The position numbers and the translations under genes are program-made. From the human T2T-CHM13v2.0 reference genome, Homo sapiens, in assembly GCF_009914755.1 (NCBI RefSeq), contig NC_060930.1: DNA of 64,000 bases, one strand, 5' to 3'. The notes below the pieces were generated by a model, which did no database searches, had not been told where the DNA came from, and saw only the letters and a program-made list of their open reading frames with translations. Positions 52,667 to 53,303 of this stretch are shown here, in pieces (position 1 is the stretch's first letter; every line of letters starts with the position of its first letter).

Positions 52667-52818
52667 ATACTTGCTACATTCATCTTGTGTGGCCTCCATG
52701 ATCTCCTCATTTTCCTTAGTGTTCAGCAGCTCCTCAGGCAGCACCATATTAATGAGGCACAGGACTTTTGTTGGGTAGCTGCCTATCTGCACCTGGGAGC
52801 ACATCTGGCATGGCACTT
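52667..52818 (-). pseudogene. U2AF2: U2AF2 (U2AF65) UHM-domain coding fragment
   Basis: [44 protein letters not shown] versus U2AF65 [44 protein letters not shown]. Confidence 0.92.
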
Positions 52819-53303
52819 AAAAAAAATGTTTAATGAGGAAATTCATCTAAAAAAATATGAAACTGCCACAGACAGTAAGAGAGCGATGGGGCCATGAGGC
52901 TGGAAATGGGTCAGGGGAAGACTACAGAAGAAAGAATCAACTACATTAAGTAAACATGGAGAAGATCAGAGAGGTCCAGGGGCAAGAGAAATGGAACCAT
53001 GATCCTGGTAAGGATAAGGATAAGGCATTGAGGGCCAGACAACAAAATTCAAAATAGTTTGGCTGTAAAATATAAACACACTATGTTTCTAGTGTGCAGA
53101 AGGAGAGGAGGAAGGGGATATAAGGGAGAAGGAGAGGCTGTTTTAGAAGATATGGGGGTCCTATTCTGTCCTTCTGTGTACCCTATCCCTATCCCAACCC
53201 TTTCCTTCTGTGCCTGTGTGGGTGCATGTGTCTGTGTGGTCCTGTGTGTACACTTCCCCAGTTCCCTCCCTTCCCTGACCCTCCCCAAATCCCTTCCTTT
53301 CAC
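52819..53303 (-). pseudogene. mRNA 3'UTR end, probably U2AF2
   Basis: The minus strand ends ...CTGTGGCAGTTTCATATT...CTCATTAAACATTT (ATTAAA at 52829-52834). It resembles my recollection of the U2AF2 terminal UTR (GCCAAACTATTTTGAATTTTGTTGTC) and needs BLAST confirmation. Confidence 0.65.

What the first reader, a model, noticed from the sequence alone, without database searches (positions are those of the whole stretch)
52667..53303. Permuted U2AF2 retrocopy: 3'UTR end lies upstream of coding sequence, same strand, no polyA
On the minus strand a terminal UTR with ATTAAA runs through a T-tract directly into UHM-coding sequence (AAGTGCC...AGCAAGTAT). That coding piece ends with no stop, UTR or polyA. 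Ordinary retrocopies are colinear and twin priming gives an inversion, so neither explains a same-strand permutation. Inference: internal priming in the CDS followed by a jump to the mRNA 3' end, or a circularised template. The UTR identity is from memory.
Basis: partly seen in the sequence, partly recalled or inferred. Interest (0 to 1): 0.7.

Follow-up and report, generated by a model that had tools for sequence, protein, structure and literature searches.

The report
L1 insertion carrying three mRNA pieces
On human chromosome 6 an old L1 jumping gene sits head-to-head with out-of-order copies of two unrelated messenger RNAs (U2AF2 and PTTG1), likely pasted in together when its copying enzyme hopped between RNAs; it is likely a functionless fossil of a known but rarely seen copying error.

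Summary
The permutation is real. The end of the U2AF2 3'UTR (79% identical to the gene) runs into an internal piece of the second-last exon (83%). Both are on the minus strand, 342 nt of mRNA between them is missing, there is no poly(A), and the breakpoints are off the splice sites.

The block is not alone. On the same strand follows a spliced, polyadenylated PTTG1 3' retrocopy, joined head-to-head through a 5-nt microhomology to a 1.9-kb 5'-truncated old L1 on the plus strand. The whole chain fills one site of a DNA transposon whose flanks are contiguous in 24 of 28 other copies. L1, PTTG1 and U2AF2 parts are similarly diverged (13-17%). An Alu inside the chain is younger (6%).

Best reading (about 0.62): one L1 insertion whose second DNA end primed internally on U2AF2 mRNA (twin priming in trans), then switched to the U2AF2 3' end and to the PTTG1 tail. 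Main rival: a separate tailless U2AF2 insertion, supported by a 7-bp repeat at both ends (p about 0.015). No significant duplication flanks the whole block, and orthologs could not be checked. The mechanisms are known; this germline combination was not found in my searches. No sign of function.

The parts
52668..52818 (-). U2AF2 coding piece, nt 32-182 of the second-last exon (exon 11 by recall), start of the UHM; no poly(A); likely the internally primed end
   Evidence: 16 of 50 amino acids changed, 18 differences at 119 nonsynonymous sites
52819..53303 (-). U2AF2 3'UTR end, to about 10 nt past ATTAAA (52829-52834); the AA at the junction with the coding piece may be shared
   Evidence: 74 of 436 non-CpG positions differ
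53304..53457 (-). 5'-truncated Alu right arm with poly(A), likely a later insertion into the 5' end of the U2AF2 UTR piece (AluS-like by recalled diagnostics)
   Evidence: 8 of 132 non-CpG columns differ from the local Alu majority; younger than the U2AF2 part, Fisher p 0.001; its own duplication is not significant, 86 of 300 shuffles
53458..53474 (-). Likely 5' stub of the U2AF2 UTR piece, cut off by the Alu
   Evidence: 15 of 15 aligned letters to the gene with one 2-nt gap; the best of 23 Alu-linker variants needs three gaps
53475..53487 (-). Poly(A) of the PTTG1 retrocopy, at the place where other securin retrocopies are tailed
   Evidence: L008 and L010 are tailed at the same place
53488..53787 (-). 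Processed securin (PTTG1 by recall) 3' retrocopy: last two exons spliced, intron absent; no row in the RefSeq table supplied
   Evidence: two exons at C5:160956232-160956391 and 160957126-160957257, 83% and 81%; Pfam Securin E 2e-15 for the source exon
53783..55708 (+). Old 5'-truncated L1 (3' part of ORF2, 3'UTR, poly(A)), about 1.9 kb, head-to-head with PTTG1; 5-nt microhomology at 53783-53787 (L1PB-like by recall)
   Evidence: 190 of 1455 non-CpG columns differ from the majority of other copies
55709..56005 (+). Old full-length Alu in the L1 tail, with its own duplication (AluJ-like by recall)
   Evidence: 10 of 11 match, 6 of 300 shuffles
46236..46612 (+). Left part of the target DNA transposon (Tigger-type, name recalled)
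46619..52651 (-). Full-length younger L1 inserted later at the left junction, with a clear duplication at 46606-46622 and 52652-52668; ORFs broken
   Evidence: 15 of 17 match, 0 of 300 shuffles; longest open stretches 645 and 324 aa
52652..52667 (+). Remaining target stub between the young L1 and the U2AF2 piece; holds the candidate left duplication of the block and a reconstructed 4-nt priming match
   Evidence: target majority and second alleles show a decayed CpG here
56006..58240 (+). Right part of the same DNA transposon, resuming where the left part stops
   Evidence: contiguous within 13-42 nt in 24 of 28 other copies; divergence read to 57900; end read from sequence

Best explanation
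The out-of-order U2AF2 pieces and a spliced PTTG1 piece lie inverted at the 5' end of an old truncated L1, and all were likely written in one L1 insertion by twin priming on foreign RNAs with two template switches. Inferred steps: (1) ORF2p cut the DNA transposon at a GT/AATA site and copied 1.9 kb of L1 RNA from its poly(A). (2) The second DNA end annealed inside the U2AF2 second-last exon, by a reconstructed 4-nt match, and copied 151 nt; hence no poly(A) at that end. (3) The cDNA switched to the 3' end of U2AF2 RNA, the same or another molecule, possibly by its terminal TT pairing with AA, and copied about 490 nt. (4) It switched to the PTTG1 poly(A) and copied about 310 nt. (5) The two cDNAs were joined through a 5-nt microhomology. 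Two Alus and a full-length L1 landed later. Shown: identities, order, orientations, PTTG1 splicing, single target site, similar divergence. Inferred: one event, order of switches, priming match. It is likely a neutral fossil.
For: The flanks on both sides of the block are one transposon interrupted at one site: 28 of 29 fetched copies match both flanks, and 24 of those 28 join them within 13-42 nt. The poly(A) is at the L1 end and absent at the U2AF2 end. PTTG1 and L1 meet at their truncated 5' ends over a 5-mer shared by both sources, with one transition in the window; chance is 0.0017 per register. Divergence is alike: L1 13.1%, PTTG1 14.2-14.4%, U2AF2 15.1% at nonsynonymous sites and 17.0% non-CpG against the modern gene; Fisher p 0.37 (U2AF2 vs PTTG1) and 0.57 (PTTG1 vs L1). 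Each step has precedent: inverted snRNA/L1 chimeras primed internally (PMC4476161, passages); a three-piece insertion with a switch of the secondary RT, nine two-RNA insertions and one with extra cDNAs at the inversion junction (PMC11702581, sections 7 and 13); ORF2p template jumping in vitro (PMC10830420, passages).
Against: No significant duplication flanks the whole block (7 of 8, reached by 48 of 300 shuffles). A perfect 7-mer flanks the U2AF2 block alone; 2906 of 200000 shuffles do as well when it must abut both junctions. The 4-nt priming match needs three adjacent substitutions, two of them at a CpG. Three later elements did land at junctions of this locus, so sequential insertion at junctions happens here. 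Similar divergence cannot separate events a few million years apart; the target transposon, which must be older, reads 10.6-12.2%. The U2AF2 pieces cross no splice junction.
Confidence: 0.62

Rival explanations
1. Two events. First a head-to-head L1/PTTG1 chimera primed on two poly(A) tails. Later a separate tailless, permuted U2AF2 retrocopy landed at the junction of the PTTG1 tail and the target, with a 7-bp duplication. This keeps the first reader's stand-alone picture.
For: Perfect 7-mer at 52660-52666 and 53469-53475, p about 0.015. It would explain why the UTR piece stops there, by 5'-junction microhomology. Tailless retropseudogenes with duplications exist, including from mRNA (PMC5322556, abstract and part 1 of Results). 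Junction insertions are common at this locus.
Against: Six of the seven letters on the right are U2AF2's own sequence. The site does not fit the tailless consensus TT/WAAAAWW, and the RNA just 3' of the end is not A-rich, against the preference reported in that paper. It needs a rare mRNA insertion at an exact junction within the same age window (inference).
Confidence: 0.17
2. U2AF2 is the twin-primed arm of the L1, but the PTTG1 retrocopy inserted later about 13 nt from the L1/U2AF2 junction.
For: The 13 nt before the PTTG1 piece and the 13 nt after its tail agree at 8 positions without a gap, all five differences being transitions (read from the sequence). PTTG1 has its own poly(A).
Against: Best flank match 6 of 7, reached by 230 of 300 shuffles. 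Both flanks are explained by L1 and U2AF2 sequence. The cut site would be GG/AATA. Divergence is the same as the L1's.
Confidence: 0.08
3. The template was already joined as RNA: a roughly 1-kb U2AF2 fragment closed into a circle without splicing, or fragments ligated end to end, then copied across the join. This changes only how the U2AF2 permutation arose.
For: One circle running from nt 32 of the second-last exon to about 10 nt past ATTAAA holds both pieces in the observed order. RNA ligation is a proposed route for same-strand chimeras (PMC13174262, passages).
Against: The ends are not splice sites. Only about 640 of about 990 nt were copied, so no repeat proves a circle. The next junction, onto the PTTG1 poly(A), needs a switch anyway.
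Confidence: 0.08
4. DNA-level capture of two U2AF2 gene fragments during repair of the break.
For: Neither U2AF2 piece crosses an exon junction.
Against: Both pieces are exonic and 5.6 kb apart in the gene, with no intron sequence matched except Alu repeats. One ends about 10 nt past the poly(A) signal. The adjoining PTTG1 piece is spliced and tailed.
Confidence: 0.03

Closest known systems
Inverted RNA/L1 chimeras by twin priming in trans (U5, U1, U2/L1 in PMC4476161; 5S, tRNA and 2 of 17 mRNA/L1 in PMC13174262)
   Same: Foreign RNA copy at the 5' end of a truncated L1, opposite strand, no tail, internal end at the target
   Different: Those described in the passages read carry one foreign RNA piece; here there are three pieces from two protein-coding mRNAs, one permuted
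Complex ORF2p insertions in cultured cells (GREM three-piece, nine two-RNA, SEMA3C with extra cDNAs; PMC11702581)
   Same: A switch of the secondary RT, several templates, opposite-strand joining with microhomology
   Different: Somatic and induced; this one is an old germline insertion in the reference genome with an L1 as the tailed arm
Twin priming and switching within L1 RNA (bioRxiv 10.1101/2024.08.27.596794; 20 and 3 cases)
   Same: The internally primed cDNA moves to another template position
   Different: There the switch stays on the same L1 RNA; here it goes to a downstream part of one mRNA and then to another mRNA
Tripartite chimeric retrogenes (PMC2104539)
   Same: Double template switch joining copies of three RNAs
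   Different: Those are made of SINE, small or non-coding RNA and LINE, with switches from the LINE-primed cDNA and clear duplications in fungus and mouse; here the chain is inverted to the L1 and the duplication is not provable
Tailless retropseudogenes (PMC5322556)
   Same: Internally primed end with no poly(A)
   Different: Stand-alone, A-rich priming, TT/WAAAAWW site; not reported as permuted in the part read

Membership tests
Twin-primed L1 chimera (foreign RNA inverted at the L1 5' end) | 5'-truncated L1 with poly(A) at one end | tested here: met
   53783-55708, A-rich tail at about 55688-55706
Twin-primed L1 chimera (foreign RNA inverted at the L1 5' end) | Foreign RNA copy in opposite orientation abutting the L1 5' end | tested here: met
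   PTTG1 and U2AF2 on minus, L1 on plus, no gap
Twin-primed L1 chimera (foreign RNA inverted at the L1 5' end) | Microhomology at the inversion junction | tested here: met
   5-mer shared by the L1 majority and PTTG1, one transition in the window
Twin-primed L1 chimera (foreign RNA inverted at the L1 5' end) | Target/RNA complementarity at the internally primed end | tested here: inconclusive
   4 nt only after undoing three substitutions; about 2 nt otherwise
Twin-primed L1 chimera (foreign RNA inverted at the L1 5' end) | One target-site duplication around the whole block | tested here: inconclusive
   7 of 8, 48 of 300 shuffles; both junctions were hit by later elements
Twin-primed L1 chimera (foreign RNA inverted at the L1 5' end) | Endonuclease-type cut site read from the L1 strand | tested here: inconclusive
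   GT/AATA against TT/AAAA, from the target majority
Twin-primed L1 chimera (foreign RNA inverted at the L1 5' end) | All parts arrive together in a species alignment | not testable with these tools
   no relatives are held for this genome
Processed pseudogene (PTTG1 part) | Intron loss and poly(A) at the cleavage site | tested here: met
Ordinary colinear processed pseudogene (U2AF2 part) | Colinear with the mRNA and tailed | tested here: not met
   permuted, 342 nt missing, no tail
circRNA-derived (back-spliced) pseudogene | Junction joins a splice donor to an upstream acceptor | tested here: not met
   junction is 31 nt inside the exon and about 10 nt past ATTAAA
Tailless retropseudogene | No tail, own duplication | tested here: inconclusive
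   no tail; 7-bp candidate, p about 0.015
Tailless retropseudogene | A-rich internal priming and TT/WAAAAWW site | tested here: not met
   the RNA after the end reads CGGGC; the site is AA/ACAATTA

The most novel reading that the evidence does not exclude
The locus records a U2AF2 mRNA fragment copied across its own ends, either as a circle closed without splicing or by an end-to-end jump from its 5' end to its own 3' end, inside a three-RNA L1 insertion. It would stand for an uncatalogued class of germline chimeras in which the second DNA end shuffles pieces of several unrelated mRNAs in one step.
Probability: 0.15. Interest if true: 0.65.

Novelty: new variant of a known kind. Interest (0 to 1): 0.38.

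Why it matters
If it is one event, it is a germline fossil of the multi-template insertions that I found described mainly from induced cells and tumours. It would show that the second, internally primed reverse transcription can hop across several mRNAs, reorder them and still be repaired and fixed. That is a route for shuffling mRNA pieces that the RefSeq table supplied does not record (no row for either piece), and it gives a pattern for a genome-wide search: tail-less antisense mRNA pieces at L1 5' ends. The locus itself shows no sign of function: 16 of 50 amino acids are changed in a piece whose source exon matches the solved protein letter for letter.

Tried and rejected
- The rest of the U2AF2 copy displaced by the young L1: rejected. 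The sequence beyond that L1 is the target transposon, and no further U2AF2 match lies in 40000-60000 apart from Alu repeats in the introns.
- Complete circular permutation: rejected, 342 nt is missing.
- Back-splicing: rejected, the ends are off splice sites.
- Splicing of antisense L1 onto the PTTG1 exon: considered because the PTTG1 piece starts at an exon boundary; antisense L1 has no GT donor there and the microhomology accounts for the join.
- The inner Alu as a fourth template of the same event: rejected as likely later; it is less diverged (p 0.019 against L1, 0.001 against U2AF2) and U2AF2 sequence continues on its far side.
- Strand-biased G>A editing: not supported, 23 C>T against 18 G>A in the UTR.
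- Selection on the 50-codon open frame: not supported. The nonsynonymous difference (0.15) equals the divergence of its neighbours; the higher synonymous value (0.48) includes the gene's own changes and CpG decay.
- Another U2AF2 retrocopy as source: none among 3 of 3 candidates in each of two searches, which skip common words.
- Pfam gave no hit for the short U2AF2 pieces; identity rests on DNA and PDB matches.

Full report
Observation. Window 52660-53305 matches, besides itself, only two places in the genome, both on C19 (3 of 3 candidates). These are the last two exons of the gene for U2AF65: they translate to residues 1-61 and 62-105 of PDB chain 2m52_A. On the minus strand the window carries the 3'UTR end (52819-53303, 371 of 467 aligned columns identical) and then nt 32-182 of the 249-nt second-last exon (52668-52818). 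The 342 nt of mRNA between the pieces is absent, and neither end of the junction is a splice site. The T-tract aligns to the gene's U-rich sequence after ATTAAA. I could not obtain the annotated cleavage site. Nothing of U2AF2 continues beyond the full-length L1 that sits 16 nt away.

What surrounds it. On the same strand, 5' of the UTR, lie a truncated Alu right arm (53304-53457), a likely 17-nt stub of the same UTR (53458-53474), a 13-nt poly(A), and 300 nt of a securin mRNA (53488-53787). That piece matches two exons on C5 without the intron between them (Pfam Securin; the name PTTG1 is recalled). It is therefore a processed copy, and it has no row in the RefSeq table supplied. Its truncated 5' end meets the truncated 5' end of a 1.9-kb old L1 on the plus strand. 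The last five letters of PTTG1 equal the first five of the L1 majority of 24 other copies, with one transition in the window (chance 0.0017 per register). The L1 ends in an A-rich tail followed by an old Alu.

One target site. The DNA left of the young L1 (46236-46612) and right of the outer Alu (from 56006) belong to one DNA transposon (Tigger-type by recall). I fetched the 29 best non-self copies of 40 scored among 866 candidates. 28 match both flanks, and in 24 of these the flanks are 13-42 nt apart; three of the other four hold an Alu in between. Of the usual 30 nt, 20 are deleted in this copy between two short repeats and about 10 survive at 52652-52667. So everything from 52668 to 56005 went into one position.

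Ages. Non-CpG difference from the majority of other copies: old L1 190 of 1455 (13.1%), PTTG1 piece 40 of 282 (14.2%), target transposon 37 of 350 and 217 of 1772 (10.6%, 12.2%), inner Alu 8 of 132 (6.1%), outer Alu 40 of 233 (17.2%, against a majority likely dominated by younger Alus). Against the modern genes: U2AF2 97 of 571 (17.0%), PTTG1 41 of 284 (14.4%); U2AF2 nonsynonymous sites 18 of 119 (15.1%). U2AF2, PTTG1 and L1 do not differ (p 0.37, 0.57); the inner Alu is younger (p 0.019, 0.001). The references are mixed and the copies were chosen as best hits, so this is a coarse clock. It puts the three core parts in one period, likely early primate (inference), and cannot order them.

Duplications. 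The test finds the young L1's duplication (15 of 17, 0 of 300 shuffles) and the outer Alu's (10 of 11, 6 of 300). It finds none of significance for the inner Alu (86 of 300), PTTG1 alone (230 of 300) or the whole block (48 of 300; 160 of 300 when measured past the Alu). For the U2AF2 block alone there is a perfect 7-mer (37 of 300; 2906 of 200000 when it must abut both junctions). This is the main result against my reading.

Mechanism. Read left to right on the plus strand, the block is what one growing cDNA would leave if it started at the left DNA end inside the U2AF2 exon, moved to the U2AF2 3' end, moved to the PTTG1 tail, and was then annealed to the L1 cDNA growing from the other end. 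Both switches land at or near an RNA 3' end. The target majority, with its decayed CpG, gives a 4-nt match to U2AF2 at the priming point without indels, but only after three substitutions. I rate one event at 0.62, a separate tailless U2AF2 insertion at 0.17, a later PTTG1 insertion at 0.08, a pre-joined or circular RNA template at 0.08 and DNA capture at 0.03. The weighting of one event over the separate insertion rests on my judgement that an mRNA copy landing at an exact junction, tail-less and in the same period, is rarer than a 1.5% coincidence on top of one more switch; it is not a computed result.

Known work. PMC4476161 (passages) describes 3'-truncated snRNAs inverted to L1 and explains them by twin priming. 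PMC13174262 (abstract, sections 10 and 13, passages) lists 17 mRNA or lncRNA/L1 chimeras, 15 in sense. U2AF2 and PTTG1 do not occur in its text, and U2AF2, PTTG1, PTTG and BCKDHB do not occur in the 6 supplements searched; the two chr6 rows of its mRNA table are other loci. One supplement was too large to read, and I did not check its Alu or small-RNA tables by coordinate. PMC11702581 (sections 7 and 13, passages) reports induced insertions with a secondary-RT switch, two RNAs, or extra cDNAs. bioRxiv 10.1101/2024.08.27.596794 (passages and part 1 of section 4) reports twin priming with switching on L1 RNA; its supplements were not looked at. PMC10830420 (passages) shows ORF2p template jumping in vitro. 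PMC2104539 (passages) describes tripartite chimeras, PMC5322556 (abstract, part 1 of Results) tailless copies, and PMC2912911 (passages) the standard models. A search for a U2AF2 pseudogene or retrocopy by five phrases found 0 papers; searches showed no listing about this locus (listings only). The library lacks most subscription papers.

Verdict. A real feature, larger than reported: a probable three-RNA L1 chimera with a permuted mRNA copy. It works like a twin-primed L1 chimera and meets that class's orientation and junction features, but membership is not proven because the duplication and the joint arrival remain open. Each step is known; the combination as an old germline insertion was not found in my searches. 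No function is evident. Interest 0.38.

Noticed in passing
window 53475-53787: A processed securin (PTTG1) 3' retrocopy, 81-83% identical to the gene's last two exons, with no row in the RefSeq table supplied; more diverged than the copies on C4, C8 and C11.
   Followed up: yes
window 46236-58240: One DNA transposon copy has taken the chimera plus three later insertions, all at the chimera's own junctions: a small case of repeated use of A/T-rich junctions.
   Followed up: partly
window 46619-52651: Full-length younger L1 on the minus strand with a clear duplication; both ORFs are broken (longest open stretches 645 and 324 aa).
   Followed up: partly
window 53783-53787: The PTTG1 piece begins at an exon boundary of its gene, inside the microhomology with the L1; probably chance.
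   Followed up: partly
L013 (C14:65290771-65291031): A further, more diverged securin-like copy (67% to the window piece) with a short tandem duplication just upstream of the match.
   Followed up: no
L072 (C19:4476599-4476641): A 43-nt, 91% match to the U2AF2 3'UTR in a low-complexity stretch; probably not a retrocopy.
   Followed up: no
window 59480-59520 and 59845-59885: A direct repeat of about 40 nt seen by eye about 365 nt apart.
   Followed up: no
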